A model generated the notes under the pieces. The model did no database searches. It saw only the letters and a list, made by a program, of their open reading frames with translations, and had not been told where the DNA came from. Below are positions 8,195 to 52,206 of a stretch of 64,000 nucleotides of DNA, piece by piece. Positions within the stretch are counted from its first letter, which is position 1. Each line of letters begins with the position of its first letter. The stretch spans positions 1 through 64,000 of the IMG/VR virus record IMGVR_UViG_3300031834_000001. One strand, written 5' to 3'. This stretch comes from a virus. The position numbers and the translations under genes were made by a program.

Positions 8195-8198
8195 GACT

Positions 8199-9480: not shown

Positions 9481-9941
9481 GCGAGACTCGCGCGGCCTAC
9501 GTGATGGACGGGTACTCGCCGCTCCTCTGCCCCTGGTGTCGCAAGACGCTGACGGTAGCCAACTCGGCCGCCAAGGGGAGCCAGGTTTACTGCAAGGGGT
9601 GCGAGTCCCGGTTGACCATCGCGAGGTGGCGGAGGAGTGGGGGCTACCGGCTTGTCGAGTTAAGCCGGGAGACGGATGGGAGCCAGGTGGCGTACATGGA
9701 GGGGGCGGGAGAGATTGGCAGACTCAACGACTAGCGGCGTGACCACGGAGGCCAAGTTGGACCGAGCGATTGGGTACCTGGTCGAGCGGGGCGAGACTGG
9801 ATGCCCACCGGGCATGTGGAACGGGGTCCGCTGGGGCAGTCACTGCGCGGAGTGCGAGACCTCCGGAGATAGGCGACGCTGCCATGACGCCTGGCTGGGC
9901 AGCGATGAGGCCAAGGAGTTCGGGAGCGAGGAGGCGCGGGG

Positions 9942-24558: not shown

Positions 24559-25840
24559 GCTTACTCTGGAGTACGACGCAAGGACTCATAAATTCCGTTT
24601 CCTCCTCGAACGCGACGCCGAAATTGTCGCAGCTCGGCAGATTGACCTGCCCCGGTTGGCCAAGCGCCTCCTCGGCCGCCTGGCCTTCGTGGCGGCCCTG
24701 CTCATTATGGCTACCCACCCCCTCCCCTATCGGCATGTCTGGCAACCCGTGTCGGCGAGGGGTGGCCCGGCCATCATGTCCGCCGAAGCGGGTCCATCCA
24801 CCCTGCCCACCATGGCCTCCTCCCCCGTCGCCTACCACGGGGCCGCCAAGGGTGTCCTGCCAGCCTACGTGACCACGCAGGGCGACGAGCACCCCGTCCC
24901 CACTGTCGCCAACCTGCCGACGCCGCCCGACTCGCCCGGTCTGGAGCTCTGGACGTACCAAGCCGCCGGGGGAGAGACGCTGGCCAGGATAGCCCAGGCC
25001 GCCTCCGTGAGCCGGGAGTGCATCGACGCCCTCAACCCCGGGGTCACCCTGGCCGTTGGCGCGAGACTCCTTCTCCCCAGACCGGGTTGTGAGGTCATAG
25101 TCTACCGGGCCACCGGCGGGGAGTCCCTGTCCGACCTGGCCGCCTTCTGGAGCACGGAGAGAGTCGCCGCCTACCTTGGCCCCAATGGGAGCCCCGAGGC
25201 CGGGGCCATGACGGAACTCTGGTCCTCCCAGGAGGTCCGGGTGTTCCTCGCGACTCGGCCAGGGATGCGCGAGGTCACCCTGGCCCAACTGGTGGCCGAC
25301 AACGGGCTCGACCCCAGGGTGCCTCTGGCTCCCGGCCAAGTCGTCTACGTCCAGTTGACCCGGCCGTCAAAGGAACTCCAGGTGAAATCTGCGGCCGGGT
25401 GGACCTACATCGGTTGCAACATGGGGCTTCCCGTGGCAGGCACGCTCAGCCAGTCCTACGGGGGGGATGGGCGGGGCCATAGGGCCATCGACATCGCGGC
25501 TCCCGAGGGGACGCCGATAACCTGCGTCCGGGATGGGGTGGTCGTAGAGGTCGGCTACGATGACGGCGGCCTCGGGATGTTCGTCCGCGTGGTCCACGTT
25601 TTCGGCGAGGACGGCCTGCCGGTCCTGGAGACCATCTACGGTCACTGCTCCGGCTATAACCCGGCCGTCGGCGAGATCATCCCTGGCTTGGGAACCACGG
25701 TCCGCCAGGGGGACATGATCGGCAAAGTCGGCAACAACGGCAACTCGACGGGGAGCCACACCCATTTCGTGGTCAGGGTGAACGGGCAACCCATGCCGCC
25801 GCTGTGGTTTGTCGCGCCTTACGGGGGGCCGGGAGAGTGA
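24551..25840 (+). CDS. LysM/M23 peptidoglycan metallopeptidase
   Basis: N-terminal TM; LysM-like GETLARIA...LNP; M23 motifs HRAIDIA, YGH, GNSTGSHTHF. Confidence 0.88.
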   Translation: MSRLTLEYDARTHKFRFLLERDAEIVAARQIDLPRLAKRLLGRLAFVAALLIMATHPLPYRHVWQPVSARGGPAIMSAEAGPSTLPTMASSPVAYHGAAKGVLPAYVTTQGDEHPVPTVANLPTPPDSPGLELWTYQAAGGETLARIAQAASVSRECIDALNPGVTLAVGARLLLPRPGCEVIVYRATGGESLSDLAAFWSTERVAAYLGPNGSPEAGAMTELWSSQEVRVFLATRPGMREVTLAQLVADNGLDPRVPLAPGQVVYVQLTRPSKELQVKSAAGWTYIGCNMGLPVAGTLSQSYGGDGRGHRAIDIAAPEGTPITCVRDGVVVEVGYDDGGLGMFVRVVHVFGEDGLPVLETIYGHCSGYNPAVGEIIPGLGTTVRQGDMIGKVGNNGNSTGSHTHFVVRVNGQPMPPLWFVAPYGGPGE

Positions 25841-27291
25841 CCGATCTCACCGCCCCCGTCCTGCTCAACATCGACTGCCGCGAGGGCCTGGCCGGATTGG
25901 CGGGCGAGTCGGTGTCGTGCGTGGCGACTTCGCCTCCCTATTGGAATTTACGAGATTACGGCGGTTGGCGGATGCAACTGGTCTGGGACGGAACCTGGGA
26001 CGACTTCGCCCTCCCTCAACGTCCTAGCCGACGCCGGGTTGCCCGTCTTCGTTGGATGACCAGGGCCGCCCGGGAGGGTATCGTCTGGAGCCGGGGACGC
26101 AAGGCCCATATCTGCGCCCTGGGCATGGAGCCCGACCCATCCCTCTACGTCGCCCACCTGGTCTCCATCTTCCGCGAAGTCCGGCGGGTTCTCCGGTCCG
26201 ACGGGGTCCTTTTTGTGGTGATCGGAGACAGTTGCTGCTCTACCGCCCCCAATACATGGGGCGACCCCCTTCGTCAAGAGGGTATCCTGGCCGGCGTGCG
26301 AGATGCGACCGCTGCGGCACGCAAACGCTACAGACCGGCCGTGCCATCCGGCCTGAAGCCAAAGGACGCCGTCGGGATTCCCTGGATGCTCGCGTTCGCC
26401 CTGCGCGACGACGGGTGGTACCTGCGCCCGGAAATCATCTGGGCGAAGGGGGCATCCTTCGGGGCCTACGTCGGCAATCCCATGCCGGAGAGCGTGAAGG
26501 ATAGGCCATCCCGGGCCCATGAGTATGTCTTCCTGTTGACCAAGTCGGAGAGGTATTTCTGGGACCACTACGCAGCGAAGGAACCTGCTCGGGTCCACGC
26601 CGGGGCGGCTGGCACCTTTAGGCGGGAGCACTCCAAGCGGGCCGTGGCCATGCCTGGGCAAACGTACGGGACGCATCGTCCCGACCGCCCCGATACGGAG
26701 CAGACAGGTTCGCGCAACCTCCGCTCAGTCTGGACGATTCCTCCCGAGCCCTTTTCCGCCCGGTTCCTCATGGCCCACGGGGACGCCGAGTTCCCCGAGT
26801 CCGACCACTACGCCACCTTCCCCCAGGACCTCGTGAAGCCCATGATCCTCGCGGGGTGCCCGGAGAGAGTGTGCCCCGAGTGTGGGAAGCCGTGGGAGCG
26901 GTTGACCGAGAAGACACGGACATTCGAGAGTGGATCCGGTCGGGCTGGCCGTGCGCCGAAGGGTAAGCATCCCGGCGGGTGCCAGGGTGGCGGCGCGACT
27001 TTGGACGTTCGCCGGGGGCCAGTTGTTCACACTCGTACCCTTGGCTTCTCGCCCACCTGCCCCTGCGGCCGGTCCGACTGGCTCCCCGGCATCGTCCTGG
27101 ACCCCTTCTCCGGCACGGGCACCACGCTCCTTGTGGCCCACGCGTTGGGCAGGCGGTCCATCGGGCTCGACATGTCGGCGGCGTACTGCGAATTAGCCCG
27201 GCGGCGACTAGCCGGACCCCTGTTCGCCGCGGTGGCCGAACCTGTCATGCCGCCGGAGCCCACCCTGTTTGGAGAGGAGGCGACGACTTGA
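25837..27291 (+). CDS. DNA methyltransferase, N4C/N6A beta class
   Basis: TSPPYW, HYATFP, VLDPFSGTGTT; Zn-ribbon insert CPECG...CPC. Confidence 0.93.
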   Translation: MTDLTAPVLLNIDCREGLAGLAGESVSCVATSPPYWNLRDYGGWRMQLVWDGTWDDFALPQRPSRRRVARLRWMTRAAREGIVWSRGRKAHICALGMEPDPSLYVAHLVSIFREVRRVLRSDGVLFVVIGDSCCSTAPNTWGDPLRQEGILAGVRDATAAARKRYRPAVPSGLKPKDAVGIPWMLAFALRDDGWYLRPEIIWAKGASFGAYVGNPMPESVKDRPSRAHEYVFLLTKSERYFWDHYAAKEPARVHAGAAGTFRREHSKRAVAMPGQTYGTHRPDRPDTEQTGSRNLRSVWTIPPEPFSARFLMAHGDAEFPESDHYATFPQDLVKPMILAGCPERVCPECGKPWERLTEKTRTFESGSGRAGRAPKGKHPGGCQGGGATLDVRRGPVVHTRTLGFSPTCPCGRSDWLPGIVLDPFSGTGTTLLVAHALGRRSIGLDMSAAYCELARRRLAGPLFAAVAEPVMPPEPTLFGEEATT

Positions 27292-38757: not shown

Positions 38758-39807
38758 TTGACCACCCTTACCGCTCCCCAACTGGTCTATCAAGCCGCCC
38801 TGGCTACCGGGTGGCCCGCTTCCGCCGTGGCCGACGTGCCCGACGGGACTTGCTGGCTCTGCCAGGGGGAGACCGGCGGCAGGGGTCGGCTGGTCGGCGG
38901 CATGTTGTCCGACACGTTCAACGACTCCAACCTGGCTCGCGGCGGGGGCCAGTCTCTCTGCCCGGCCTGCGTCTTCTGCCTGCAGGAAAGGGTTCGCGCC
39001 AAGGCGGGCGAGTCGGCCAAGTTGAGCCCGGATGAGCGAGCTGCCCATCGTCGAGCCATGAAGGACCCCGCCCAGGCGGCAAACGGCGTCCTCGGTCTCC
39101 GCATGTTCTCCTATCTTGCCACGTCCAACAGACTCCTCCTGCCCGACCGTTCCGAGTGGCGGGACATACTCCTCTCCCCTCCCGAGCCGCCCTGGACCGC
39201 CGCGATAGCCCTTTCCGGCCAGAAACACCTAGCCTTGCGCGGCAGGGTCAACTGGTCCAACCTGGCCCCCATCGTCCTTCTCGAAATCCAGCTTATCCAG
39301 TTCACCCCGGCCAACCTCGCCGCCGACCTGGCCATCATCGAGGACGGGATGACCGTGTTCTCCAAGACGGAACTGGAGACCGGAGATTACTCCATCCACC
39401 GGATAGGCCAGTTCGGACTCGACCGCTTCGAGGAACTGGAGGGACGCCTGGCGGCCATGCGTCTCCGGCGAAGCCAGTTTACCCTGGCCGTCTACGTGGC
39501 GAGGGAACCTCATGACTCCAGGTGTACTCGGCCCGTCCAACCTCGCCCGAACACCGGGGTATCCGTGCCCGCTTGCTTCCGCCAGAAGACCCCAACGGCC
39601 AAGGCGCAACAAGAAGTCTGGTTCGCCGACCCGGCCAACCGCGCCAAGTGGTCCATGCGGCCCGGCGCGTGGGAGTGTCACCCCGAGTGCCGGGTACTCC
39701 TGGCTCGGTCAGGCGGGCAGAAGGAACCTCGCCCGGCGGCTAGCAACTCCATGATAGCGAGGGAGGGTTGGGCCGATGGACTCTTCGGGGAGGCCAAGGT
39801 TCGCTAG
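38758..39807 (+). CDS. csf1: Type IV CRISPR-associated Csf1 (Cas8-like large subunit)
   Basis: CWLC...SDTFND...LCPACVFC Zn finger; LLSPPEPPW...SGQKH. Confidence 0.85.
   Translation: MTTLTAPQLVYQAALATGWPASAVADVPDGTCWLCQGETGGRGRLVGGMLSDTFNDSNLARGGGQSLCPACVFCLQERVRAKAGESAKLSPDERAAHRRAMKDPAQAANGVLGLRMFSYLATSNRLLLPDRSEWRDILLSPPEPPWTAAIALSGQKHLALRGRVNWSNLAPIVLLEIQLIQFTPANLAADLAIIEDGMTVFSKTELETGDYSIHRIGQFGLDRFEELEGRLAAMRLRRSQFTLAVYVAREPHDSRCTRPVQPRPNTGVSVPACFRQKTPTAKAQQEVWFADPANRAKWSMRPGAWECHPECRVLLARSGGQKEPRPAASNSMIAREGWADGLFGEAKVR
39721..39750 (+). promoter_or_regulatory. Recurrent bipartite promoter-like motif inside the csf1 3' end
   Basis: AAGGAACCTC-N13-CAACTCC upstream of RBS GGAGG and ATG 39776. 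Confidence 0.6.
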
Positions 39808-40903
39808 GCCGTTCTTCGTGACCCCGCACGCCGTGGACCAATTTCGCGCCAAGATAGCCGACCTCGCCCCGGCGGACGTGATAACCGAGGTCCAACGGAT
39901 GATGCAGGATAAGCGGCTGCCGCCAACCTGGACGCCCAAGGGGAGCCCGTCCGCCAAGGTTGCCTGTATCCTCCCCGTTGACGCCGAGTTGCGCGAGGGT
40001 GGCCTGACGCTTATCTATCTCGGGTGGCTCGGGAGCAACCCGGTGTATATTCCCACCCTGGCCCCCGACGGAGTTCATGGGGGCTGGCCGTCCGTGCCTA
40101 CCGTCATGGGCAAGGAGTCCAGGCTTCACAACGTTCTCGTCCGGGCGGCGGCGTGGAAGAAGCGGTGCGGCAGGTTCCCTCTGCGGCGATGGGTGGAGGA
40201 GGACGACCGCCTACTCGCGGCGCTAAGGGATGCCGGGTTCAGCATCCGGCAAGTGGCGTCCATCATGCGCCGGGGCCACCACACTGTCTGGCGGCACACT
40301 CGCCACCCACTGGATCGCCGACAAGACTGGCCCGCTGACGACGTCCAGGCCGCCGTGGCGCTAAGGGCGGGCGGCAAGTCCTGCCGGGAGGCCGGGCTCA
40401 TCCTGGGGCGCACATCGGGCGGCGTGGCCATGCGGCTCTACAGGTACCGCCGGGAACATCCGAGGGACAAGCGAGCCCGGACCACCGTGCCCGGCCCATG
40501 GCCGAAGGAGGACGTGACCCTCGCGGTAGCCATGCGGGCCGAGGGGAAGACGCTGGCCCGGATAGGCGAGGCCGTCCACCGGAGCCGGGCCGCCGTGAGT
40601 TGGCGGATTGTCCGGGAGAGCAGGAAGCCTCTAGCCCCCGAGGTTACCGGGCCGTGGACGGAGGCCGAGTTGGAGTTAGCCCACAACCTGCGGGCCAAGG
40701 GGAAATCGTGCCCCTGCATCGCTCGGAAACTCAAGCGGAGCGTGGGGGCCGTCTACCGCAAACTTGCCCTAATCCGCGAGAAGCGCCTGGCCGATCCGAG
40801 GGGGCGGGCCATCGCGGGGATGGTGGGCCGGATAATCAAGGTAGTCAGAAAGGAGGGCATCGAATGTCTACCGGAACCTTTCAGCCAGAAGAACGCTCCC
40901 TAA
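39776..40903 (+). CDS. Protein with four tandem Myb/GcrA-like HTH repeats
   Basis: W..ED-like...(L/M)R..G.(S/T)...R...V pattern repeated four times. Confidence 0.75.
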   Translation: MDSSGRPRFARPFFVTPHAVDQFRAKIADLAPADVITEVQRMMQDKRLPPTWTPKGSPSAKVACILPVDAELREGGLTLIYLGWLGSNPVYIPTLAPDGVHGGWPSVPTVMGKESRLHNVLVRAAAWKKRCGRFPLRRWVEEDDRLLAALRDAGFSIRQVASIMRRGHHTVWRHTRHPLDRRQDWPADDVQAAVALRAGGKSCREAGLILGRTSGGVAMRLYRYRREHPRDKRARTTVPGPWPKEDVTLAVAMRAEGKTLARIGEAVHRSRAAVSWRIVRESRKPLAPEVTGPWTEAELELAHNLRAKGKSCPCIARKLKRSVGAVYRKLALIREKRLADPRGRAIAGMVGRIIKVVRKEGIECLPEPFSQKNAP

Positions 40904-41388
40904 TTCACGGATTCTGGACGCGCCACGAAAGCCGGGCCATAGCGGCTTTGTTGGTCTACGGCATCTACCGCTCGCGAGACCAGGGCCGTTTCAAGGTCAC
41001 GCCCGACATGTGGGGCCGGATTGAGCGGGCGGTCAAATCCTGCGCCCTGAGCGCTCAGGACTTGGAGGAATTCATCGACCGCTTCAAGTCCAAGATGCAG
41101 TGTTCGACCATCCACCCCCGATACATGCGGTCCGACCTCGGCGTCGGCCAAACTCTTGTTGAGGACCGCAGGACCGGCGAAATCCTCGGTACCAGCGGCG
41201 ACCGCCGGGAATTCTGGGTGGAAATTCTGGAGGACGCCGACCACAAGGCCGCCCTGGACGCCCTGTACCGCCAGACAGGCGCGGTTGTCGCCTTGGTCCG
41301 TGACCGCCTGGAGCGCGAGAAACCCCTGGAAGCCATGATTGGAGAGGAGACGCGAAATGACGGCGACACCGACAACAAGGCCGAGTAG
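40864..41388 (+). CDS. Cas11-like small subunit of type IV-B
   Basis: About 175 aa, helical, between csf1 and csf2; ends LVRDRLEREK. Confidence 0.65.
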   Translation: MSTGTFQPEERSLIHGFWTRHESRAIAALLVYGIYRSRDQGRFKVTPDMWGRIERAVKSCALSAQDLEEFIDRFKSKMQCSTIHPRYMRSDLGVGQTLVEDRRTGEILGTSGDRREFWVEILEDADHKAALDALYRQTGAVVALVRDRLEREKPLEAMIGEETRNDGDTDNKAE

Positions 41389-42415
41389 TTCCTATAAAAC
41401 CTACTACTTGGAGGGCATCGTGACCCTCCTGTCCCCCCTGTCGCATATCGGGGAGAATCTCGGCACGACGACCCACTTTTCCCGGCAGGCCATCGTCGGC
41501 CCCGACGGGAAACGCGTGGAGTGCTTCGCCCATTCGGGCAACGGGTTCCGGGGTCACTTCCGGGACGATGGGGTGAAGCACCTCCTCCGCGCCCTGGGTA
41601 GCCCGAACCTGCCGCCCAAGCCGTTTCACCTGCTCTTCGGTGGCGGCACGATGACCGGGGAATTCGTGGTGGACATTGACCTCGCCCGGCGACTCCGGGA
41701 AGCCCTGCCTCTCCTATCTCTCTTCGGGGCCGCGACGGGCAATCACATCATGCCCGGCAAGTGGAACACGGGTATCCTGTGGCCAATCTGCGCCGAGACG
41801 CAACGGCTCCTCCCGGCCTATCTGCGGAACCCCGAGGCCCCGTCCTGCCGGACGTGGATAACCGAACTCAACTTCAGCAGAAAGGACGACGGGAAGGATG
41901 AGCGGCTAACCCGACACATGCTACCCGGCGCGACGGGCCAGTTGGCGTTAGGGGGAGCCGAGCCCACGCCGAAAAAGAGGGGCAAGGGCAAGCCTAGCGA
42001 CGACGGGGAGGCCGGGGACGAACCGGCCCAGCAGATGCGCTATACCGTCCAGGCCCTCGCGGCGGGCGGCGAACTCTTCCAACGCATCCACGTCCTCGAC
42101 GCCACCGAGTTGGAGTTCGGGGCTCTCATGTCCTGCTTCTCCGAGTGGTCCCAGGCCCCCTATCTGGGCGGCAACAACGCGAAGGGCCTGGGGCTCGTTG
42201 CGGGCGAGTGGACCTACCAGACCGGCGAGATGGACGAACCGGCCCCGCTAGTCTCCGCCGGGCCGGGGGAGTTCGCGCCGAAGAACGCGGGCAAGGAGGC
42301 CCTGGACCGCTACGACGCCTATCTCCTCGACGCCTACGAGAGGTACATTTCGGGCAACGCGCCCGAAATCAGGCAGGCCCTCGGGGTAAGCGGAGGGGTC
42401 CATGGAACCGCTTAG
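41357..42415 (+). CDS. csf2: Type IV Csf2 (Cas7-like RAMP backbone)
   Basis: TLLSPLSHIG, SGNGFRGHFRD, LFGGG, LSLFG, G-loop LGGNNAKGLG. Confidence 0.9.
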   Translation: MTATPTTRPSSSYKTYYLEGIVTLLSPLSHIGENLGTTTHFSRQAIVGPDGKRVECFAHSGNGFRGHFRDDGVKHLLRALGSPNLPPKPFHLLFGGGTMTGEFVVDIDLARRLREALPLLSLFGAATGNHIMPGKWNTGILWPICAETQRLLPAYLRNPEAPSCRTWITELNFSRKDDGKDERLTRHMLPGATGQLALGGAEPTPKKRGKGKPSDDGEAGDEPAQQMRYTVQALAAGGELFQRIHVLDATELEFGALMSCFSEWSQAPYLGGNNAKGLGLVAGEWTYQTGEMDEPAPLVSAGPGEFAPKNAGKEALDRYDAYLLDAYERYISGNAPEIRQALGVSGGVHGTA

Positions 42416-43088
42416 GGTGATCGCTACTCTCGAAACCGGCCAGGTGGCCACGTTCGACGGGAATCTCCCGCTCGATGGTATCATCGCGGCCGCCTGGATG
42501 CGCCGGTATCACCCGGATGCCTTCTGGACCGGCGCGCCGAACCGCATGGGCGAGGACTGGATTGAGCCTATCCTCCCCCTTGACCGGCGCGTGTCGGACG
42601 GGGAGTGGTACTGGGCTTCCTCGTTCGCCCGGTACCGCCAACTGTCCGAGGAGATCACCTACTGGCATAAGAGGTTCGACGACGACATGGAACACTTTCT
42701 CGACTTGGGCGGCCGGAGTGGTAGGATGAATGTGAAGTCGGGGCCATTTAAGAGTTACCGGATGCCCCTGGTCTACATGGTCACGCCGGAGCTAGTCTGG
42801 CACATCGTTGGCGACAGGGGGGAAGTGGCGAGCCTACTCGGCATGATACCCGCCGTCGGCAAGAAGCGCTCGGCCGGCTATGGTTTCGTGGCCTCCTGGG
42901 TGGTCGAACCCTGGCCGGTGGACCTCTCCTGCCATGATGAGCGCGGGAGACCGATGCGAGCCATTCCGACCAGGGACGGCCCGTCCGAATGTGGGGTCAG
43001 GCCGCCCTACTGGCATCCGGTGAACCGGGTTAGGTGCGAGATGCCTGCCCCGTGGGGAGGAACTGGGGAGTGGGAGAGACAGGGATAA
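42402..43088 (+). CDS. csf3: Type IV Csf3 (Cas5-like RAMP)
   Basis: LPLDGIIAAA, SGPFKSYRMP, VGKKRSAGYGFV, RPPYW. Confidence 0.9.
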   Translation: MEPLRVIATLETGQVATFDGNLPLDGIIAAAWMRRYHPDAFWTGAPNRMGEDWIEPILPLDRRVSDGEWYWASSFARYRQLSEEITYWHKRFDDDMEHFLDLGGRSGRMNVKSGPFKSYRMPLVYMVTPELVWHIVGDRGEVASLLGMIPAVGKKRSAGYGFVASWVVEPWPVDLSCHDERGRPMRAIPTRDGPSECGVRPPYWHPVNRVRCEMPAPWGGTGEWERQG

Positions 43089-43606
43089 TGTTTCCGTGCC
43101 TGGGGGTCAAGCTGGTTCCGGCGGACAAGGTAGTCTGCAACGGCTACAATCCCAACAAGGTGGCGCGGCGAGAGCTCGACCTGCTGGAACTCTCCATCAG
43201 GGAGGATGGGGTGACTCAGGCGCTCGTGGTCTACCATGATGTTGGGGCCGACAAGTACGTCATTGTGGACGGGTTCCACCGCTACGTCGTCCTGGTTCGC
43301 CTGGGGTGTGCCGAGATCCCGGTAGTCGTGATCGACAAGGACCTGAGAAACCGCATGGCGAGCACTGTCCGGCACAACCGGGCGCGGGGCAAGCACCAGG
43401 TGGACTTGGTGGCCGAGTTGGTCAAAGCGCTCCTCGCCAAGGGATGGGACGACGCGAGGATAGCGGAGCATCTCGGGATGAGCGCGGAGGAACTGCTGCG
43501 CCTGAAGCAGATCGTCGGTGCCGCCAAGTTGCTGGCTGGCACGGAGTATTCGGCGTCTTACGGGAGGGACGATGAGCCGGATGGGCAGGATTCATCTGAC
43601 AGATAA
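43088..43606 (+). CDS. IbrB-like ParB/Srx-domain protein
   Basis: NGYNPNKVA...SIREDG...IVDGFHRY...STVRHNRARGKH. Confidence 0.9.
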   Translation: MFPCLGVKLVPADKVVCNGYNPNKVARRELDLLELSIREDGVTQALVVYHDVGADKYVIVDGFHRYVVLVRLGCAEIPVVVIDKDLRNRMASTVRHNRARGKHQVDLVAELVKALLAKGWDDARIAEHLGMSAEELLRLKQIVGAAKLLAGTEYSASYGRDDEPDGQDSSDR

Positions 43607-44354
43607 CCACGATCAACTGGACCTGCCGAGAGGACGCGAGGCGGTCTGGCTCCATTCCGCAAAGGACCGCAGGCCGCGGGCGGAGCGGTGCGTCACGCTC
43701 CCGGAGTTCCTGGATGCCCCCTGGGAGAGCGTCAAGGGTGCGGACCTCCTCGTCGTTGTCGGTCTCGTTTCCCGCCTTTGCACTCCCGGCAACAGGGTGC
43801 GCCTGGGCCAGTATCTCACCGACCCCTGGAATGGCCCCGAGCGCGTCTCGGTAGACGACAGGTTGTTCATCGTCGATCCGTGGCGCATGTGGTGGCACTT
43901 TGGTTGCGTAGGCATCGACTTCGGGGGATGCTCCGTGAGTTATACCTTGGAGACTCGTTGGAACGGTTTCGTGGTGGGGATGAGGGAGAACCCCTGCACC
44001 CCTTCTGAACTCGACCGCTACGGCCTTGGCGTCATTGACGCCCGCGGAGCCTTCAAGTTCGAGCCGATCAACATTCACGTCGAACCCATGCCGGAGGAGG
44101 TTCGCGAATGCTACGCCGCCGAGAAAGAGGTCGCCTTCAACGAGGAGGCGACTCCGGCGGCGATCATCAAGCGCCTGGCCGCCTTCGCTTCATCGGTCTA
44201 CCCGTCCCGGTCGGTGCCTTCGTTTAGGGACATGTTCCGCAACCGCCACCTTGAGGTCCGGGCCACAGACCTTGGCGTGGACCGCTTCCTGGCGAACCAG
44301 ATTTCTCTCCGGGTTGAGTTGACCAACTACGCCGCCGAGAGCTTCGCCGTATGA
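43572..44354 (+). CDS. Hypothetical protein between the IbrB-like and IbrA-like genes
   Basis: 260 aa ORF overlapping both neighbours. Confidence 0.75.
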   Translation: MSRMGRIHLTDNHDQLDLPRGREAVWLHSAKDRRPRAERCVTLPEFLDAPWESVKGADLLVVVGLVSRLCTPGNRVRLGQYLTDPWNGPERVSVDDRLFIVDPWRMWWHFGCVGIDFGGCSVSYTLETRWNGFVVGMRENPCTPSELDRYGLGVIDARGAFKFEPINIHVEPMPEEVRECYAAEKEVAFNEEATPAAIIKRLAAFASSVYPSRSVPSFRDMFRNRHLEVRATDLGVDRFLANQISLRVELTNYAAESFAV

Positions 44355-45406
44355 ATGTCTACGAGGGGGCCGTAAACCGAATTAGGTTCATCTTCGCCGA
44401 GTTCCCGCGTGTGGTCGTCAGCGTCTCCGGCGGGAAGGACAGCACGTGCCTATTCTACCTGGCGGCGGCAGAGGCGGAGCGGCAAGGGCGGCGCTTCGAG
44501 GTGTTCTTTCTGGACCAGGAAGCGGAGTATCAGAGTTCCGTCGAGATCATTGAGGGGATGATGCGGCACCCGCTAGCGATCCCGCGTTGGTACCAGGTGC
44601 CCATCCATATGACCAACGCTACGAGTCACGCCGAACTCTTCCTCCACGCCTGGGGTGAGGGTGAAACTTGGATACGCGAGAAGAGCCCGCTGGCGATTCA
44701 CGGCATCCCCGAACCATACCCGAAGCGGTTCTACGACTTCTTCCCCTGGTTTGAGAGTCTGGACCGGGAGCCGACGGCGCACCTGGTCGGCCTGCGGCAG
44801 TTCGAGAGCCTAAACCGTCACCGGGCGGTCTACAAGGCCAATGGGTACAAGCACTATAAGTGGAGCACCCGATGCGCTCCAGGAAGCGCGAGTTACCGCT
44901 TCTATCCGATTTTCGACTGGCAATTCCGCGACGTGTGGAAGTGCATCGCCGACAACAGTGTCCCCTACAACAAACTCTATGACCGCATGTACGCCCGGAG
45001 CGGCGCGAACATGAGCACCATGCGCGTGTCGAACCTCATCCACGAGCGGGCATTCCGGGCGCTGGCGCAGGTGCAGGAGTTCGAGCCGGACACCTACGAC
45101 AAATTGGTCGCCCGGTTGGGCGGGGTGCATTGCGCCGCGCTCTACGCCGAGGACCGCTACATCTTTAGCGCCGACCGCCTGCCACCCGCGTTCAAGTCGT
45201 GGCGGGAGTACCGCGACTACCTATTGGCGACGACGCCGTCAAGCACGCAAAGCCGCTACCTCAAGCGCTTCGCCAAGCAGGACGCCGACGAGTCTGCCTG
45301 TCAGCACCAGGTCAAGCAGTTACTCCTCAACGACTGGGAAGGCAATCTTCCGATCACGCGGCAGAAGAGGCGGAAGGTCCGGGAGCAATGGTGGGACCTC
45401 CTATGA
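44351..45406 (+). CDS. IbrA-like PAPS-reductase-family PP-loop protein
   Basis: VSVSGGKDS, FLDQEAEY, VGLRQFESLNR, YPIFDW. Confidence 0.9.
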   Translation: MNVYEGAVNRIRFIFAEFPRVVVSVSGGKDSTCLFYLAAAEAERQGRRFEVFFLDQEAEYQSSVEIIEGMMRHPLAIPRWYQVPIHMTNATSHAELFLHAWGEGETWIREKSPLAIHGIPEPYPKRFYDFFPWFESLDREPTAHLVGLRQFESLNRHRAVYKANGYKHYKWSTRCAPGSASYRFYPIFDWQFRDVWKCIADNSVPYNKLYDRMYARSGANMSTMRVSNLIHERAFRALAQVQEFEPDTYDKLVARLGGVHCAALYAEDRYIFSADRLPPAFKSWREYRDYLLATTPSSTQSRYLKRFAKQDADESACQHQVKQLLLNDWEGNLPITRQKRRKVREQWWDLL

Positions 45407-45957
45407 CCGATATTATCATCAGGGCCTGCCGGGAGCGGCAAGCATGGGTGGACTATCTTCTCGACCGGCTACCGGGGGCCACGGTTGTCTACGATACCAC
45501 GCGCAACGCGATGAACACCTTCCTCGAAGCCCTGCGAGTTGCCGGCGACCGCCCGGTTATCCACATGGAGGACGACGTGCTCCTCGCGAAGGGGTTCGTC
45601 TGCAAGGCCGAGTCGGTGATAGGCGAACGTCCCGAGACGGCCATTCAGTTCTTCTCGATGCGCAAGCGGGACATCCAGGTTGGGTCTAGGTGGGAACCCG
45701 GAGGGACCTTCCTAGCGGGCCTATGCTTCTACTTGCCGGCCGGGATGTCCGAGCGGCTCCTGCGCTTCGACTGGCCCCGTCGGGAGGAGCATCCCACCGG
45801 CCTAGACTTGCTGGTCGCCGATTTCCTGCGGGCCAACAAGGAGAGGTACTGGCTACATGTCCCCAATCTGGCGCAACATCGGTTTGGCAAGAGTCTGATC
45901 GATTCCCGCCGCTCGCGCTATCGGCAGTCGTTGACCTTCGAGGACCCCGACGAATGA
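45403..45957 (+). CDS. Putative GT-A glycosyltransferase
   Basis: VIHMEDDV (DxD-like), DLLVADFL, PNLAQHR. Confidence 0.6.
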   Translation: MTDIIIRACRERQAWVDYLLDRLPGATVVYDTTRNAMNTFLEALRVAGDRPVIHMEDDVLLAKGFVCKAESVIGERPETAIQFFSMRKRDIQVGSRWEPGGTFLAGLCFYLPAGMSERLLRFDWPRREEHPTGLDLLVADFLRANKERYWLHVPNLAQHRFGKSLIDSRRSRYRQSLTFEDPDE

Positions 45958-46703
45958 CGGAGGACGAAATGGAGTTGTATCACCTCCATGCCCGGCTTCC
46001 CCGCGTCCGCCGTTTGACCGCGCAGGCCATGTCCGACCTTCGCGACTGGCGGGCCAACTGTTCCCGCCCTTACGTCGCTTGGTCCACCGGGAAGGACTCG
46101 ACCCTCTGCTTGTGGCTCGCTCTCCAGGTGGACCCGAATGTCGAGGCTATCTACCTTGACGCCGAGTCTTCCCTCCCGGAGACAGAGGAGATGCTCGACA
46201 CCCTGCCCGCCCAGTGGGGCTTCCGCCTCCGAGTAGTCAAGACACGGCCGCTTCTCGACATGCTGGCCCAGTATGGCTTGGACGACCCGCATATCGAGGA
46301 GCGGACGATGCAGGCAACCGTCCGGGAACCGATTAAACGGCTGAGACGCGAGGGATACGACGGCGTTGTCGTGGGCATTCGCGCCGATGAGAGCCGGGGC
46401 AGAATGAAAGGCATTAACCGCATGGGGCGACTTTTCTGGAGCAAGTCGTCCGGGATGTTGACCTGCTGGCCTGTGGCCCGATGGACAAGCCGGGATGTCT
46501 GGGCTTACACGGTGGCCAACGGGCTCCCCTATAACCGGGCCTACGACAAGCTCCTGGGTTGGCCACTTGAGGAGCGGCGAGTCTCCTACTGGGCGGGCGA
46601 GACCAACAGGGAATGCGGCCGCTACGTCTGGCTCCGGCGGTACCACCCCGACCTTTATGCCCAACTGGTTGCCCGACTCCCGCGAGTAGGCAACTTTGTC
46701 TGA
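45954..46703 (+). CDS. cysH: CysH-like PAPS-reductase-family protein of type IV-B
   Basis: VAWSTGKDS, VGIRADESRGR, PVARWTSRDVWAY. Confidence 0.88.
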   Translation: MTEDEMELYHLHARLPRVRRLTAQAMSDLRDWRANCSRPYVAWSTGKDSTLCLWLALQVDPNVEAIYLDAESSLPETEEMLDTLPAQWGFRLRVVKTRPLLDMLAQYGLDDPHIEERTMQATVREPIKRLRREGYDGVVVGIRADESRGRMKGINRMGRLFWSKSSGMLTCWPVARWTSRDVWAYTVANGLPYNRAYDKLLGWPLEERRVSYWAGETNRECGRYVWLRRYHPDLYAQLVARLPRVGNFV

Positions 46704-46721: not shown

Positions 46722-46923
46722 AAGGAACCTCCCCGTTCCCGCCTCAACTACCACCCAGACCCTGAACGCTAGGAGGCCGACTCGCCGCCGTGTCCGACTC
46801 TCCATCCCCCGTCACCCTGCTTACCGGAGACTGCCTGGTGGCCAAGAGTAGGCAGAAGGAACCTCCCTTGTCCGCTCTCAACTACCAGATAGACCCTGAA
46901 AGCGAGGAAGCCCAGTCGCCGTG
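46722..46923 (+). repeat. Two imperfect ~70 bp direct repeats (promoter motif, leader, RBS, GTG)
   Basis: AAGGAACCTCCC-N10-TCAACTACCA-N3-AGACCCTGAA-N4-AGGA...GCCGTG at 46722 and 46856. Confidence 0.85.
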
Positions 46924-49852: not shown

Positions 49853-50236
49853 ATGCCCACCGCCCCACCCCACGCCTGCGCTAACCGAGCCTGCCCCGGC
49901 CTCGCCGCCAAGGGTCACCGCTACTGCCCGGCCTGCGAGGGCAAGGGCATGGGGCGCGAGGAAGCCAGGGTCTACGATGCCAGACGGGGGAGCGCGAGGG
50001 AACGGGGGTACGACGGGAGATGGGAGAGGTTCCGGGCTAGCATCCTGCGACACCGGGGTATCTGTGAGTACCGGGAGGACGGCGGTAAGCCCTGCGTTGA
50101 GCCAGCCACTGACGTGCATCACGTTATCCCCAAGGTTGACGGCGGCCCGGATACCGAGGAGAACGTCCAAGCTTTATGTGGCTATCACCATAAGGCGACT
50201 GAATCTAGAAGCGGCAGGCGGTGGGGCCATGCGTGA
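49853..50236 (+). CDS. Packaging-associated HNH endonuclease
   Basis: RGSARERGYDGRW...VHHVIP...NVQALCGYHHKA. Confidence 0.9.
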   Translation: MPTAPPHACANRACPGLAAKGHRYCPACEGKGMGREEARVYDARRGSARERGYDGRWERFRASILRHRGICEYREDGGKPCVEPATDVHHVIPKVDGGPDTEENVQALCGYHHKATESRSGRRWGHA

Positions 50237-51041
50237 CCTGGTCTGCGAGAGATGCCATGAACCCTTCCGATCAGTTAGGCCGCGCCAGTACTGCTCGCGA
50301 ACCTGTTCCAACAGGGCAACCTCGCCGGTGAGGGAGGACGCTGCCGCCCAGAAGAAGGCGGTCACCCTGTGGTCATGCGGGGGAGGCGTGCAGAGCGCAG
50401 CGGTGGCCGTGCTGATAGTGGAGGGCAAGCTGCCCAGGCCCGACCTGGCCGTCATGGTGGATGTGGGATACGAGACGGCGGCCACATGGCGCTATGTGGA
50501 CGAGGTCATCAGGCCGGGCGTTGGGGATGTTGGGGTAACGTTGGAGATCGTGAAGACCACCGACTGGGCGAGCAATGACCTGTTCGACAGGACTGGCCAC
50601 CTGGTCATTCCCGCCTACAAAGAGGACGGGGGCAGGTTGGCCACCCACTGCTCAGGGCCGTGGAAGGTCAGGGTGGTCAAGCGGTGGCTCAGGAGTCTGG
50701 GAGTAGAGAGGTGCGAGGATTGGGTGGGCATCTCGGCGGATGAGGCACAGAGGGCTAGGCCGTCGGGGAGCAGGTGGTTCAGTAACAGGTACCCGCTCGT
50801 TGAGGCGGGCATGACGAGAGAGGACTGCCTGTGGGCTATCTGTGGACACGGTTGGCCGAAGCCGATGAGGACATCTTGCGTCATGTGCCCACAGAGGAGC
50901 GCGGCGCAGTGGCGGGGGATGAAGGAGAGCCAACCGGACGAGTGGGACAGGGCGTGCGAGATAGATGAGGAGATTAGGGCGCGAGGCGCGAGGGCGTATC
51001 TGCACAGGTCGCTAAGGCCGCTCCGGGAGGCGTTGGGGTAG
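50229..51041 (+). CDS. Zn ribbon plus PAPS-reductase-like PP-loop protein
   Basis: CERC...CSRTC; WSCGGGVQS; VGISADE; YPL; SCVMCP. Confidence 0.8.
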   Translation: MRDLVCERCHEPFRSVRPRQYCSRTCSNRATSPVREDAAAQKKAVTLWSCGGGVQSAAVAVLIVEGKLPRPDLAVMVDVGYETAATWRYVDEVIRPGVGDVGVTLEIVKTTDWASNDLFDRTGHLVIPAYKEDGGRLATHCSGPWKVRVVKRWLRSLGVERCEDWVGISADEAQRARPSGSRWFSNRYPLVEAGMTREDCLWAICGHGWPKPMRTSCVMCPQRSAAQWRGMKESQPDEWDRACEIDEEIRARGARAYLHRSLRPLREALG

Positions 51042-51140
51042 GTAGGGGCGGTGGAAATCTGTGGGACCGACTGTGAGAGGACCGACAGGGTGGGAAGGAA
51101 GGCAGTCAACCCTCCCCGGTTCAAACGTGATTTTGCCGCA
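51035..51140. other. Candidate cos/packaging-site region
   Basis: G-rich tract and GGAAATCT between the HNH gene and terS, where cos lies in HK97-like phages. Confidence 0.35.
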
Positions 51141-51249
51141 AGAACAAATTGAACAGTCCGCTCAACCTAGCCTAGCTAGCGAAGAGGAGTCCTCCCACTC
51201 CCTGGTTGAGCGGGTTTCCATTTGGGAGACCGCGAGGGAGAGCGGAACC

Positions 51250-52206
51250 TTGATAACCGATCTGGGACCAGTCATTCGAGAGGCCCGACTGGCGGGCAGG
51301 GGCTACAAGGCCATCGCCAGAGAAACCGGATTCCCCCGAGATGCCATCCGCAATTACTGCAAGAGGAACGGCTTGGCCGGCGAGCGCGGTCCTCGACCAA
51401 AGGCTCGGGTAGAGACTAAGCCGCCCAAGCCAGTTCTCTGTCGGCGGTGCGGGAAGGAACTCCCGGTCCACGCTTCCACGGGACCGCCAGCCCAATACTG
51501 TTCGAGCGAATGCCGGCGTGCCTGGTGGGAAGAACACCAAGATCAGAGGCGGCAGTATGACCTTATCTGCAAGTGCTGCGGGAACTCCTTCAAGAGTGCG
51601 CGGCAAAGCCGGCAATTCTGCTCCCCTGGGTGTTCCCGCGCGGCCACAAGGCTTCTCCCTGACGGCGCGTGCGCGGTCTGCGGTAAGACGTTCAGACCTA
51701 GAAACACTCACCAGAAGTGCTGCTCCTGGCCCTGCGGGCAGACCGCGTCCAAGAGTGGCCGGCCTAAGCCGGTGGCGCGAACCTGCAAGCGTTGCGGGAA
51801 GACCTTTGTTCCCAAGCGGGCCAACTATGCTACCTACTGCTCGCGGGAGTGCGCGTTCGCGGACCGAGCGGTAGCAATCACCGAGGCGAGAGCGCGCAAG
51901 ACGGTGCCCTGGCGGTTCGGCGCCGGCGATGCGAGTTGCCGCCGCCGGGCGAGGCGATATGGTCGAGCGGTGGAGAGAATTGTGCCGCTTGAGGTCTACG
52001 AGCGTGACGGTTGGAAATGCGGGATCTGTGGAAAGAAAGTTGACCGGCGACTTCGTTGGCCCCATCCCATGAGCGCGTCGCTAGATCATATCGTGCCCCT
52101 CTCGCGAGACGGGGACCATGTCGCCACCAATGTCCAACTCGCCCACCACAGTTGTAACACACGGAGGCACGTTACCGGGGCGGCGCAGTTGAGACTGCTA
52201 CCCTAA
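51250..52206 (+). CDS. HTH plus tandem Zn ribbons plus HNH endonuclease
   Basis: GYKAIARETG HTH; four CxxC...CxxxC units; CGICG...LDHIVPLSRDG...NVQLAHHSCN. Confidence 0.88.
   Translation: MITDLGPVIREARLAGRGYKAIARETGFPRDAIRNYCKRNGLAGERGPRPKARVETKPPKPVLCRRCGKELPVHASTGPPAQYCSSECRRAWWEEHQDQRRQYDLICKCCGNSFKSARQSRQFCSPGCSRAATRLLPDGACAVCGKTFRPRNTHQKCCSWPCGQTASKSGRPKPVARTCKRCGKTFVPKRANYATYCSRECAFADRAVAITEARARKTVPWRFGAGDASCRRRARRYGRAVERIVPLEVYERDGWKCGICGKKVDRRLRWPHPMSASLDHIVPLSRDGDHVATNVQLAHHSCNTRRHVTGAAQLRLLP

What the first reader, a model, noticed from the sequence alone, without database searches (positions are those of the whole stretch)
38758..46703. Phage-borne, array-less type IV-B Cas effector in one operon with an IbrAB/glycosyltransferase modification-like module
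Seen: ten overlapping or coupled genes in the order csf1, 4xHTH, cas11-like, csf2, csf3, IbrB-like ParB/Srx, unknown, IbrA-like PP-loop protein, putative glycosyltransferase, cysH. No cas1, cas2, cas6, dinG or CRISPR array is visible in the 64 kb. Established: type IV-B loci lack arrays, carry a cysH-like gene and have no known function; the PAPS-reductase-family proteins DndC and SspD act in DNA phosphorothioation. Here a four-gene block sits between csf3 and cysH, giving two PP-loop enzymes. Inference: a Cascade-like RNA-binding scaffold may be coupled to nucleic-acid modifying chemistry (RNA-guided modification or phage DNA protection), or it may sequester host crRNAs as an anti-defence device.
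Basis: partly seen in the sequence, partly recalled or inferred. Interest (0 to 1): 0.92.

Follow-up and report, generated by a model that had tools for sequence, protein, structure and literature searches.

The report
Phage type IV-B Cas with IbrAB enzymes
A complete 93-kb sediment phage carries a guide-less type IV-B CRISPR protein complex with four predicted nucleic-acid-handling enzymes inserted into the same operon, and this pairing recurs in unrelated phages where it seems to replace an SNF2 DNA motor, giving a testable clue to what type IV-B systems do.

Summary
Window 38758-46703 has ten overlapping + strand genes on a complete 92.9-kb tailed-phage genome: csf1, a fusion of a conserved N-terminal domain with four HTH repeats, cas11, csf2, csf3, ParB/Srx (IbrB-like), X, PAPS-reductase+DUF3440 (IbrA-like), Y and a CasCysH-type gene. 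PADLOC profiles confirm all four Csf/Cas11 subunits (E 1e-23 to 1e-59). The genome has no CRISPR array, Cas1, Cas6e or DinG-type helicase.

New here:
- X has a degenerate SNF2-like fold without a conserved Walker A motif.
- Y has a GT-A glycosyltransferase fold with an E-D-D motif.
- Among 78 viral IbrA loci, 14 carry csf genes within 10 kb. They fall in at least five places on both the IbrA and Csf2 trees, and in two loci the cassette lies between csf subunit genes.
- An X-like gene sits directly upstream of ibrA in 77 of 78 loci. A full SNF2 ATPase accompanies 47 of 64 csf-less loci and 0 of 14 csf-linked ones.

Functional coupling is therefore well supported. The chemistry is inferred: probably adenylation-based DNA modification, not phosphorothioation.

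Type IV-B on phages is already published. I found no paper on the IbrAB link, but this scan has reported the pairing before on at least eight other genomes.

The parts
38758..39807 (+). csf1 (type IV Cas8-like large subunit). It has four zinc-ribbon cysteines (C32, C35, C68, C71) and a C-terminal tail of about 100 aa not shared with relatives.
   Evidence: PADLOC typeIV_Cas8 1.5e-23. TIGR03114 2.4e-8, below cut-off. The cysteines are invariant or nearly so across 30 Csf1 sequences. RBS GGAGG lies before the TTG start.
39721..39747 (+). Promoter-like motif AAGGAACCTC-N13-CAAC inside the 3' end of csf1, 29 nt before the start of the HTH gene.
   Evidence: Five copies in the window against 0 expected in 100 shuffles.
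39776..40903 (+). Fusion protein: a conserved Csf-associated N-terminal domain (about residues 4-125, motifs TPHA and WPxVPT) followed by four HTH repeats.
   Evidence: HTH_23 2.4e-9, HTH_38 2.2e-8. phrog_323. The N-domain occurs as a stand-alone gene of about 120 aa beside csf1 in 8 loci and is fused to Csf1 in L034/L036. It has no Pfam or PDB sequence match.
40864..41388 (+). cas11 (type IV small subunit).
   Evidence: PADLOC typeIV_Cas11 1.1e-33 on residues 135-281 of the long ORF. The ATG at 40864 follows AAGGAGGG.
41357..42415 (+). csf2 (type IV Cas7 backbone).
   Evidence: PADLOC Csf2_0_IV 1.8e-59. TIGR03115 3.9e-9. phrog_22746 1.7e-44. Relatives are named Csf2 by JGI.
42402..43088 (+). 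csf3 (type IV Cas5).
   Evidence: PADLOC Csf3_0_IV 2.2e-49. TIGR03116 1.6e-15.
43088..43606 (+). IbrB-like ParB/Srx-fold protein with a DGFHR motif at residues 61-65.
   Evidence: ParB_N 1.2e-8. phrog_2159 1.4e-54. It is the only ParB_N in the genome. Sequence read.
43572..44354 (+). X: degenerate SNF2-like protein with no conserved Walker A motif.
   Evidence: AF2 model pLDDT 96.5. In VIA-align the top 20 chains are all SNF2-family ATPase cores, Z 11.4-8.1, with 220-242 of 260 residues aligned. Foldseek is weak (best E 5.8e-3). Invariant residues are R75, W104, S123, E127, Y181, F189, and there is no GKT. An X-like gene lies directly upstream of ibrA in 77 of 78 loci.
44351..45406 (+). IbrA-like PP-loop ATP pyrophosphatase (PAPS_reduct + DUF3440) with motif SVSGGKDS at residues 24-31.
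   Evidence: PAPS_reduct 1.3e-17, DUF3440 1e-12. phrog_2302 1.2e-87. 44% identical to proteins annotated IbrA in Flavobacterium phages. The PP-loop is at least 95% conserved in 72 sequences, and no cysteine is conserved at that level.
45403..45957 (+). Y: small GT-A-fold putative glycosyltransferase with an E56-D57-D58 motif.
   Evidence: AF2 pLDDT 94.2. Foldseek PDB hits are GnT-I, mimivirus R655 and POMGnT1, E 4e-5 to 1e-4, TM 0.54-0.61. E56 and D58 are invariant in 35 sequences. Atlas leads point to Glyco_transf_25. The Hendrix gp154 homologue lies beside a glucosyltransferase and an IbrA.
45954..46703 (+). CasCysH-type PP-loop protein (cysH-like) with motif STGKDS at residues 44-49.
   Evidence: PAPS_reduct 1.3e-19. 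In 76 csf-linked CysH sequences S44, G46, D48 and S49 are invariant and K47 is 99% conserved; G141, E146 and R150 are invariant, R143 is 99% and S147 86%. Window C221, which sits in an ECG context, is not conserved.
46722..46921 (+). Two 66-nt copies (79% identical) of the promoter-like motif plus leader, just after the cysH stop. They mark the end of the unit and are not a CRISPR array.
   Evidence: Each copy ends in an RBS-like AGGAGG or AGGAAG.

Best explanation
This is an array-less subtype IV-B CRISPR-Cas effector operon (Csf1, Cas11, Csf2, Csf3 and CasCysH) on a tailed phage. It has taken in the conserved core of a widespread phage enzyme cassette. That core is an IbrB-like ParB/Srx protein, a degenerate SNF2-like protein (X) and an IbrA-like PP-loop ATP pyrophosphatase. 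An optional GT-A glycosyltransferase (Y) comes with it here.

Shown: the gene identities, their tight coupling in one operon-like run, and the recurrence of this pairing on several independent branches. Also shown: free-standing cassettes usually carry a full SNF2 ATPase, while csf-linked ones in this sample never do.

Inferred: the Csf ribonucleoprotein stands in for the SNF2 motor as the part that engages and opens double-stranded DNA. The ParB/Srx protein and X hold the enzymes on the nucleic acid. The two PP-loop enzymes (IbrA, CasCysH) use ATP to adenylate a position on the exposed nucleic acid. A group is then transferred to that position, here probably ending in a sugar added by Y. On a phage, the most likely purpose is to mark its own DNA, or to mark or silence a competitor's DNA, in conflicts with host defences or other mobile elements. 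The HTH fusion protein is probably a Csf1-associated subunit that doubles as a DNA-binding regulator or targeting part.
For: Gene identities.

Coupling: every junction overlaps or abuts. A promoter-like motif, five copies against 0 expected, brackets the HTH-to-cysH run at 39721 and 46722.

Recurrence:
- 14 of 78 IMG/VR IbrA loci carry at least two csf core genes within 10 kb. By contrast, the pattern scans confirmed csf2 in only 115 stretches of the 2.9 million viral contigs.
- The csf-linked rows need at least 5 changes on the IbrA tree and 5-6 on the Csf2 tree.
- The single IbrA+X clade that holds the window pairs with Csf2 proteins scattered across the Csf2 tree, so the cassette has moved between IV-B lineages.
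- The cassette is interleaved with subunit genes in L099 (csf2-parB-X-ibrA-Y-cysH-csf3) and L105.

SNF2 exclusivity: an X-like gene lies upstream of ibrA in 77 of 78 loci. A full SNF2 lies within 6 kb in 47 of 64 csf-less loci and in 0 of 14 csf-linked loci (naive Fisher p 2.6e-7). The phage genome has no SNF2-rel_dom at all.

Folds: X is SNF2-like (Z 11.4). Y has a GT-A fold with an invariant E-x-D.

Chemistry: the PP-loops are intact in both enzymes and no cysteine is universally conserved.

Precedent from the literature: ParB-like proteins partner DNA-modifying enzymes in Dnd (DndB with DndC) and in Dpd (DpdB with DpdA) (PMC12839542). CasCysH has been proposed to AMPylate substrates (PMC13676074, PMC8175902).
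Against: No experiment or structure shows contact between Csf proteins and the cassette. No modified base is known for any IbrAB phage.

The SNF2/csf exclusivity rests on few independent events: 4-6 contrasts, and the sign test cannot reach 0.05. Some csf-less, SNF2-less loci are short contigs.

One close relative, L103, keeps parB-MTase-MTase-X-ibrA with no csf genes within 7 kb, so the cassette can stand alone.

The only solved IV-B complex bound heterogeneous RNA with no guide specificity (PMC7937560), so targeted action is unproven. DNA rather than RNA as the substrate is an inference from the SNF2, ParB and methyltransferase neighbours.
Confidence: 0.5

Rival explanations
1. These are two independent systems that happen to sit together in a phage accessory-gene hotspot. 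Under this reading, IV-B with CysH does one thing, the IbrAB cassette does another (for example self-DNA modification against restriction), and neither needs the other.
For: IbrAB cassettes are mostly free-standing: 64 of 78 loci, and 213 phage records carry IbrA. Most IV-B loci lack them. L103 keeps the cassette without csf genes.
Against: The cassette lies between csf subunit genes in L099 and L105. In the window, L106 and L011 it separates csf3 from cysH. The start and stop codons overlap. The pairing arose at least five times. Csf-linked cassettes consistently lack the SNF2 gene.
Confidence: 0.17
2. This is a signalling or protein-AMPylation device. Under this reading, the Csf complex senses an RNA or DNA, and CasCysH and IbrA then make a nucleotide second messenger or AMPylate a protein target. 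They would not modify nucleic acid.
For: The literature proposes that CasCysH AMPylates substrates or makes messengers (PMC13676074, citing PMC8175902). Both enzymes keep the ATP-binding PP-loop and lack the reductase cysteine.
Against: The constant partners are DNA-oriented: ParB/Srx, SNF2-like proteins, DNA-methylase-like genes in L004, L011 and L105, and a glycosyltransferase. No messenger-activated effector was recognised in the operon.
Confidence: 0.15
3. This is a crRNA or small-RNA sponge, that is, an anti-CRISPR device. The Csf filament would soak up host guide RNAs, and the enzymes would be unrelated passengers or would modify the captured RNA.
For: The IV-B Csf complex assembles on heterogeneous RNA of uniform length (PMC7937560). 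The sponge idea is discussed in PMC7038947. The element is a phage with no array of its own.
Against: PMC7038947 itself judges so complex an anti-CRISPR unlikely. The idea does not explain the near-invariant CysH. It also does not explain the recurrent IbrAB cassette or why that cassette excludes SNF2.
Confidence: 0.08
4. This is a Dnd/Ssp-like DNA phosphorothioation system, with IbrB and IbrA as counterparts of DndB and DndC.
For: The domain pairing is the same (ParB-like plus PAPS-reductase family). There are weak DndC and SspD profile matches.
Against: DndC TIGR03183 scores 24.6 bits against a cut-off of 290. No cysteine is universally conserved in IbrA or CasCysH. The phage has no cysteine desulfurase, although the host's could be used. 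No DndD/E or SspB/C was recognised.
Confidence: 0.05

Closest known systems
Subtype IV-B CRISPR-Cas (csf1-cas11-csf2-csf3 plus cysH-like). The reference complex is from the Mycobacterium sp. JS623 megaplasmid (PMC7937560). Surveys: PMC7038947 and PMC8175902.
   Same: It has all four effector genes and a CasCysH-type gene with an intact PP-loop and no conserved catalytic cysteine. It has no array, cas6, dinG or adaptation genes. It sits on a mobile element.
   Different: Four extra genes (ParB/Srx, SNF2-like X, IbrA, GT-A) lie between csf3 and cysH. A further gene between csf1 and cas11 fuses a conserved small domain to four HTH repeats. The carrier is a complete 93-kb tailed phage rather than a plasmid.
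Free-standing phage IbrAB cassettes (SNF2 ATPase, SNF2-like protein, IbrA, IbrB). Examples are IMG/VR loci L130 and L122, and the IbrA/IbrB genes of Flavobacterium phages (PMC4541368).
   Same: The core is the same: an X-like gene directly upstream of an IbrA with PAPS_reduct+DUF3440, next to a ParB_N protein. A Y-type GT-A gene is an optional extra (L163, L169, L171, Microbacterium phage Hendrix).
   Different: There is no full-length SNF2 ATPase anywhere in the genome. The gene order is parB-X-ibrA rather than X-ibrA-parB. The cassette is embedded in a Cas operon.
Virus-borne type IV-B of Bathyarchaeia 'Fuxiviridae' (PMC10848311), and the unannotated compact set in Skermania phage SPI1 (KR011061, Orf40-44).
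   Same: A type IV-B gene set with cysH on a viral genome.
   Different: Those loci are the plain five-gene form (for SPI1). Fuxivirus also has a mini-array. Neither has the IbrAB cassette.
Dnd (DndB with DndC) and Dpd (DpdB with DpdA) DNA-modification systems.
   Same: In both, a ParB-like protein works beside an ATP-using or base-exchanging DNA-modifying enzyme.
   Different: There are no equivalog-level matches to DndC or SspD. There is no desulfurase, no TGT and no restriction partner. These systems offer a working analogy only; this locus is not a member.

Membership tests
Subtype IV-B CRISPR-Cas | Csf2 (type IV Cas7) | tested here: met
   PADLOC Csf2_0_IV 1.8e-59. TIGR03115 matches only below its cut-off.
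Subtype IV-B CRISPR-Cas | Csf3 (Cas5), and Csf1 (large subunit with zinc-ribbon cysteines) | tested here: met
   Csf3 2.2e-49 and Csf1 1.5e-23. C35, C68 and C71 are invariant and C32 nearly so.
Subtype IV-B CRISPR-Cas | Type IV Cas11 small subunit | tested here: met
   PADLOC typeIV_Cas11 1.1e-33.
Subtype IV-B CRISPR-Cas | Associated cysH-like gene of the CasCysH type: PP-loop kept, reductase cysteine not conserved | tested here: met
   PAPS_reduct 1.3e-19. The alignment of 76 csf-linked CysH sequences keeps the SxGKDS motif (K47 at 99%). The column of window C221 is mostly Y, H or Q.
Subtype IV-B CRISPR-Cas | No CRISPR array, cas6/csf5, dinG, cas1 or cas2 | tested here: met
   No repeat array in 92.9 kb. 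No Rfam hit in the window. No Helicase_C_2, Cas1 or Cas6e family hit. Cas2 and Csf5 were not searched separately.
Subtype IV-B CRISPR-Cas | Assembly into an RNA-containing Csf filament | not testable with these tools
   This needs expression and purification. The precedent is PMC7937560.
IbrA/IbrB phage cassette | IbrA: PAPS_reduct domain followed by DUF3440 | tested here: met
   phrog_2302 1.2e-87. 44% identity to proteins annotated IbrA.
IbrA/IbrB phage cassette | An adjacent ParB/Srx-fold IbrB | tested here: met
   ParB_N 1.2e-8. phrog_2159 1.4e-54. A parB gene is paired with ibrA in 77 of 78 viral loci.
IbrA/IbrB phage cassette | A degenerate SNF2-like gene directly upstream of ibrA | tested here: met
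   Fold match Z 11.4 to SNF2 cores. An X-like gene holds this position in 77 of 78 loci. Direct profile similarity between X and the L130 counterpart is weak.
IbrA/IbrB phage cassette | An accompanying full-length SNF2 ATPase | tested here: not met
   No SNF2-rel_dom in the genome. It is absent from all 14 csf-linked loci and present in 47 of 64 others. This is therefore a variant of the cassette.
Dnd/Ssp DNA phosphorothioation | A DndC- or SspD-type sulfurtransferase with conserved cysteines | tested here: not met
   TIGR03183 scores 24.6 bits against a cut-off of 290. No cysteine is universally conserved.
Dnd/Ssp DNA phosphorothioation | A cysteine desulfurase (DndA or SspA) | tested here: not met
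   No Aminotran_5 in the phage genome. A host enzyme could substitute.
GT-A glycosyltransferases (for Y) | GT-A Rossmann-like fold with an acidic DxD-type motif | tested here: met
   Foldseek matches to GnT-I, R655 and POMGnT1, E about 4e-5 to 1e-4, TM 0.54-0.61. E56 and D58 are invariant. Nucleotidyltransferases share this fold and are not excluded.
GT-A glycosyltransferases (for Y) | Sequence membership in a curated GT family | tested here: inconclusive
   No Pfam hit for Y. The Hendrix homologue matches Glyco_transf_25 only at E 0.0085. Atlas clusters carry that family in 12-17% of members.
SNF2 ATPases (for X) | Walker A/B and the SNF2 helicase motifs | tested here: not met
   There is no conserved GKT. 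Invariants are R75, W104, S123, E127, Y181 and F189. No Pfam SNF2-rel_dom hit. X resembles the fold but is not filed as an active SNF2.

The most novel reading that the evidence does not exclude
Type IV-B Csf complexes are the nucleic-acid-engaging module of a natural, CRISPR-derived DNA-modification writer. In this reading the Csf ribonucleoprotein replaces an SNF2 translocase. It opens DNA, whether RNA-guided or merely RNA-scaffolded, so that the PP-loop enzymes (IbrA, CasCysH), a ParB/Srx clamp and a glycosyltransferase can install a bulky base or backbone modification.
Probability: 0.25. Interest if true: 0.9.

Novelty: new variant of a known kind. Interest (0 to 1): 0.78.

Why it matters
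Subtype IV-B is the main CRISPR-Cas subtype whose biological function is still unknown; a September 2026 paper says so (PMC13676074). The field has pointed to the CysH-like gene as the key but has had no further handle.

A recurrent, operon-level union with a defined enzyme cassette is a concrete, testable lead. So is the observation that this union excludes the SNF2 motor that the cassette normally carries. It predicts which proteins should co-purify, that the substrate is DNA, and that a modified nucleoside should be detectable. It also assigns a context to the IbrA/IbrB cassette, which occurs in hundreds of phages and has no known role.

Microbacterium phage Hendrix is an isolated phage that carries the Y-GT-GNAT-IbrA set, so it offers a culturable system for the chemistry.

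Tried and rejected
I therefore got gene neighbourhoods from the search for related loci instead.
- Near-identity DNA searches of the phage and plasmid collections found nothing. A single-sequence Csf2 scan of the viral contigs also found nothing until an alignment was used.
- Complex prediction on Csf1 (residues 1-250) with the N-terminal domain of the HTH protein returned 'no answer'. This is not evidence either way.
- No RNA holder was listed among the public runs. The contigs laid on the region show only that the phage is abundant in one sediment sample, probably its source, and present at low depth in three other sediment studies.
- Rfam found no family in the window. The consensus promoter/terminator scan gave nothing above chance.
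- The 66-nt duplication after cysH was checked as a possible mini-array. I rejected this: there are two copies, each with the promoter-like motif and an RBS.
- The N-terminal domain has no match in Pfam, in PDB sequences (best E 0.29) or in the word-indexed protein search.
- hhalign of the X family against the L130 X-like protein gave only a short local match (probability 3.9). Homology between the two X groups therefore rests on position and fold, not on sequence.
- The independent-pairs test of csf against SNF2 on the IbrA tree is underpowered (4-6 pairs).
- TerL is at most 44% identical to known phage TerL proteins, so I assign no host.

Full report
**What is there**

The window is the first 64 kb of a 92,858-bp IMG/VR virus record with terminal repeats and CheckV completeness 100. 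It is 65% G+C, and nearly all genes are on the + strand. Large terminase, portal, head protease and major head protein lie at 52.5-59.5 kb, so the element is a tailed phage. Its TerL is at most 44% identical to known phage terminases. Public runs place it in sediment metagenomes. I do not assign a host.

From 38758 to 46703 there are ten + strand genes, each overlapping or abutting the next. After checking in-frame starts and ribosome-binding sites, the coordinates are:

| Gene | Coordinates |
|---|---|
| csf1 | 38758-39807 |
| HTH fusion gene | 39776-40903 |
| cas11 | 40864-41388 |
| csf2 | 41357-42415 |
| csf3 | 42402-43088 |
| ParB/Srx gene (ibrB) | 43088-43606 |
| X | 43572-44354 |
| ibrA | 44351-45406 |
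| Y | 45403-45957 |
| cysH | 45954-46703 |

A promoter-like motif, AAGGAACCTC-N13-CAAY, occurs five times in the window against none expected. One copy lies inside the 3' end of csf1, 29 nt before the HTH gene. Two copies lie right after the cysH stop. The run from the HTH gene to cysH therefore looks like one transcription unit, with csf1 at the end of the unit before it. This is an inference from the motif positions.

**Identities**

PADLOC profiles confirm Csf1 (1.5e-23), Cas11 (1.1e-33), Csf2 (1.8e-59) and Csf3 (2.2e-49). The NCBIfam equivalogs match below their cut-offs. Csf1 keeps the four zinc-ribbon cysteines.

- **IbrB.** The ParB/Srx gene matches ParB_N and phrog_2159.
- **IbrA.** It has PAPS_reduct plus DUF3440 and matches phrog_2302 at 1.2e-87. 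It is 44% identical to proteins annotated IbrA in Flavobacterium phages.
- **CysH.** The last gene is a PAPS-reductase-family protein. I aligned 76 CysH proteins from csf-linked loci. The PP-loop SxGKDS is kept: S44, G46, D48 and S49 are invariant and K47 is 99% conserved. G141, E146 and R150 are invariant, R143 is 99% and S147 86%. The cysteine that the window protein has in an ECG context is not conserved. This matches the published description of CasCysH (PMC8175902).
- **Y.** It folds with pLDDT 94 into a GT-A fold. The best Foldseek hits are GnT-I, mimivirus R655 and POMGnT1, with E about 4e-5 to 1e-4 and TM 0.54-0.61. It has an invariant E-x-D motif.
- **X.** It folds with pLDDT 96.5. 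Foldseek is weak. In the exhaustive VIA-align search, however, the top 20 chains are all SNF2-family ATPase cores (CSB, SWR1, Chd1, ISWI, the Sulfolobus SWI2/SNF2 core, ZorD). Z is 11.4-8.1 over 220-242 of 260 residues for most of them. The family has no conserved Walker A motif, so X has an SNF2-like fold but is degenerate.

**Absences**

The whole genome has no CRISPR-like repeat array. It has no Cas1, Cas6e, DinG-type helicase domain or SNF2-rel_dom, and no cysteine desulfurase. Rfam finds nothing in the window. The 66-nt duplication after cysH is two promoter/leader copies, not an array.

**Is the pairing more than neighbourhood?**

A Csf2 profile found 115 relatives in IMG/VR, of which the best 80 were kept, and 15 in GTDB genomes. 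Nearly all of these loci have the plain csf1-(cas11)-csf2-csf3-cysH set. A few also had ibrA and parB next to it.

The reciprocal scan with an IbrA alignment was more telling. It confirmed 214 relatives and kept the best 80, giving 79 distinct loci; one of these is the earlier locus L012, so 78 new loci (L099-L176) were mapped. Of those 78, 14 carry at least two csf core genes within 10 kb.

The arrangements differ:

| Locus | Gene order |
|---|---|
| Window | csf1-HTH fusion-cas11-csf2-csf3-parB-X-ibrA-Y-cysH |
| L106 | csf2-csf3-parB-X-ibrA-Y-GNAT-cysH |
| L099 | csf1-cas11-csf2-parB-X-ibrA-Y-cysH-csf3 |
| L105 | csf2-csf1-(methylase-like)-parB-X-ibrA-cysH-csf3 |
| L101 | csf1-csf2-csf3-cysH-parB-X-ibrA-Y |
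| L004 | csf1-N-domain gene-cas11-csf2-csf3-cysH-parB-MTase-MTase-X-ibrA |
| L011 | csf1-cas11-csf2-csf3-Xlike-ibrA-parB-MTase-cysH |

In L099 and L105 the cassette lies between effector subunit genes.

On an IbrA tree of 72 sequences the csf-linked rows need at least five changes. On a Csf2 tree of 101 sequences the IbrAB-linked rows need five to six. The window's IbrA belongs to a nine-row clade (SH-aLRT 94) in which every member has X and eight of nine have csf genes. The Csf2 partners of that clade are scattered across the Csf2 tree. The cassette has therefore been exchanged among IV-B lineages rather than simply inherited with one of them. One close relative, L103, has the cassette without csf genes.

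**The SNF2 observation**

In free-standing cassettes such as L130 and L122 the order is as follows:

1. a full SNF2 ATPase of 470-480 aa (SNF2-rel_dom plus Helicase_C);
2. a second protein of 275-345 aa;
3. ibrA;
4. parB.

A gene of the second kind, or X itself, lies directly upstream of ibrA in 77 of 78 loci. A full SNF2 lies within 6 kb in 47 of 64 csf-less loci and in 0 of 14 csf-linked loci. The naive Fisher p is 2.6e-7. With only 4-6 phylogenetically independent contrasts, the corrected test cannot reach significance. Several csf-less, SNF2-less loci are also short contigs.

Direct sequence similarity between X and the L130 counterpart is weak. Their equivalence therefore rests on position and fold.

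**How it most likely works**

The invariable core is an SNF2-like adaptor, a PP-loop ATP pyrophosphatase and a ParB/Srx protein. It is normally served by a dsDNA translocase, and it often travels with DNA-methylase-like, GNAT or glycosyltransferase genes. I infer that it acts on DNA. I also infer that, in the csf-linked form, the Csf ribonucleoprotein takes over the SNF2 motor's job of engaging and opening DNA.

PP-loop enzymes adenylate their substrates. Neither IbrA (72 sequences) nor CasCysH (76 sequences) has a universally conserved cysteine. Dnd-type matches are far below cut-off. I therefore favour adenylation followed by group transfer over sulfur chemistry, ending here in glycosylation by Y. 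ParB-like partners of DNA-modifying enzymes are known from Dnd and Dpd systems (PMC12839542).

Everything beyond gene identity, coupling and co-occurrence is inference. No contact, substrate or product has been shown.

**The HTH gene**

The part shared with other IV-B loci is the N-terminal domain of about 110 residues (motifs TPHA and WPxVPT), not the HTH repeats.

- It is a stand-alone gene of about 120 aa beside csf1 in L003, L004, L006, L010, L035, L083, L086 and L090.
- It is fused to HTH repeats in the window, L094 and L095.
- It is fused to the N-terminus of Csf1 in L034 and L036.

The Csf1 fusion suggests a Csf1-associated subunit. The domain has no Pfam or PDB sequence match. A complex prediction gave no verdict.

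**Comparison with what is known**

Type IV-B on plasmids, prophages, some lytic phages and archaeal viruses is published (PMC7038947, PMC10848311). Skermania phage SPI1 carries an unannotated compact set. As of September 2026 the function of IV-B was still described as unclear (PMC13676074).

I found no paper in the held library that links IbrA or DUF3440 to type IV-B. Subscription journals are not covered by that library.

Within this scan the pairing has already been reported by follow-up agents on at least eight other genomes. One of them also noted that the cassette appears where an SNF2 helicase would be. I re-derived both points independently here.

**Verdict**

- It is a new variant of a known kind.
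- It is of high interest because it makes the IV-B question testable.

Noticed in passing
window 39776-40165; L003, L004, L006, L010, L034-L036, L083, L086, L090, L094, L095: A conserved domain of about 110 aa (TPHA...WPxVPT, invariant H18, W104, T109) with no known family recurs beside csf1 in one clade of IV-B loci. It is fused to Csf1 in L034/L036 and to HTH repeats in the window, L094 and L095. It may be an unrecognised IV-B subunit.
   Followed up: partly
window 612, 35731, 39721, 46722, 46856: The motif AAGGAACCTC-N13-CAAY occurs five times against 0 expected, each copy just upstream of an RBS and start codon. It looks like a phage-specific promoter family.
   Followed up: partly
window 49977-51041 and 51061-52206: A third PAPS-reductase-like gene (phrog_424, 1e-32) has an N-terminal Cys-rich extension and no Pfam PAPS_reduct hit in the genome-level search. 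An HNH endonuclease follows it, just before the large terminase.
   Followed up: no
L079 10981-11565 and 12389-13486: An IbrAB-linked IV-B locus on a 113-kb 'viral' contig has a Cas6e-family gene (CRISPR_assoc, 2.1e-9) between csf2 and csf3. It has no cysH in the stretch held, and a flagellin gene lies next to it.
   Followed up: no
L098 (Microbacterium phage Hendrix, NC_047977) 5914-10037: This isolated phage carries a Y homologue (gp154), a glucosyltransferase, a 331-aa protein annotated as a methyltransferase, a GNAT and an IbrA (gp158, 38% identical, PAPS_reduct+DUF3440) at its right genome end. It is a culturable model for the cassette.
   Followed up: partly
L120, L121, L149, L156: Some viral contigs carry two ibrA-parB pairs in tandem.
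   Followed up: no
L088 7114-12400: A Saccharibacteria-labelled MAG contig has csf1-cas11-csf2-csf3 followed by a second csf1-csf3-cysH set.
   Followed up: no
window 42757-43480: In the probable source sample, a minor variant contig (depth 7.6 against about 170) differs at 74 of 724 positions across the csf3/ibrB junction. A related strain therefore co-occurs.
   Followed up: no
window 25804-27291: A large DNA methyltransferase (phrog_67, 4.6e-47) lies in the early region of the same phage, next to a peptidase-domain protein at 24542-25840.
   Followed up: no
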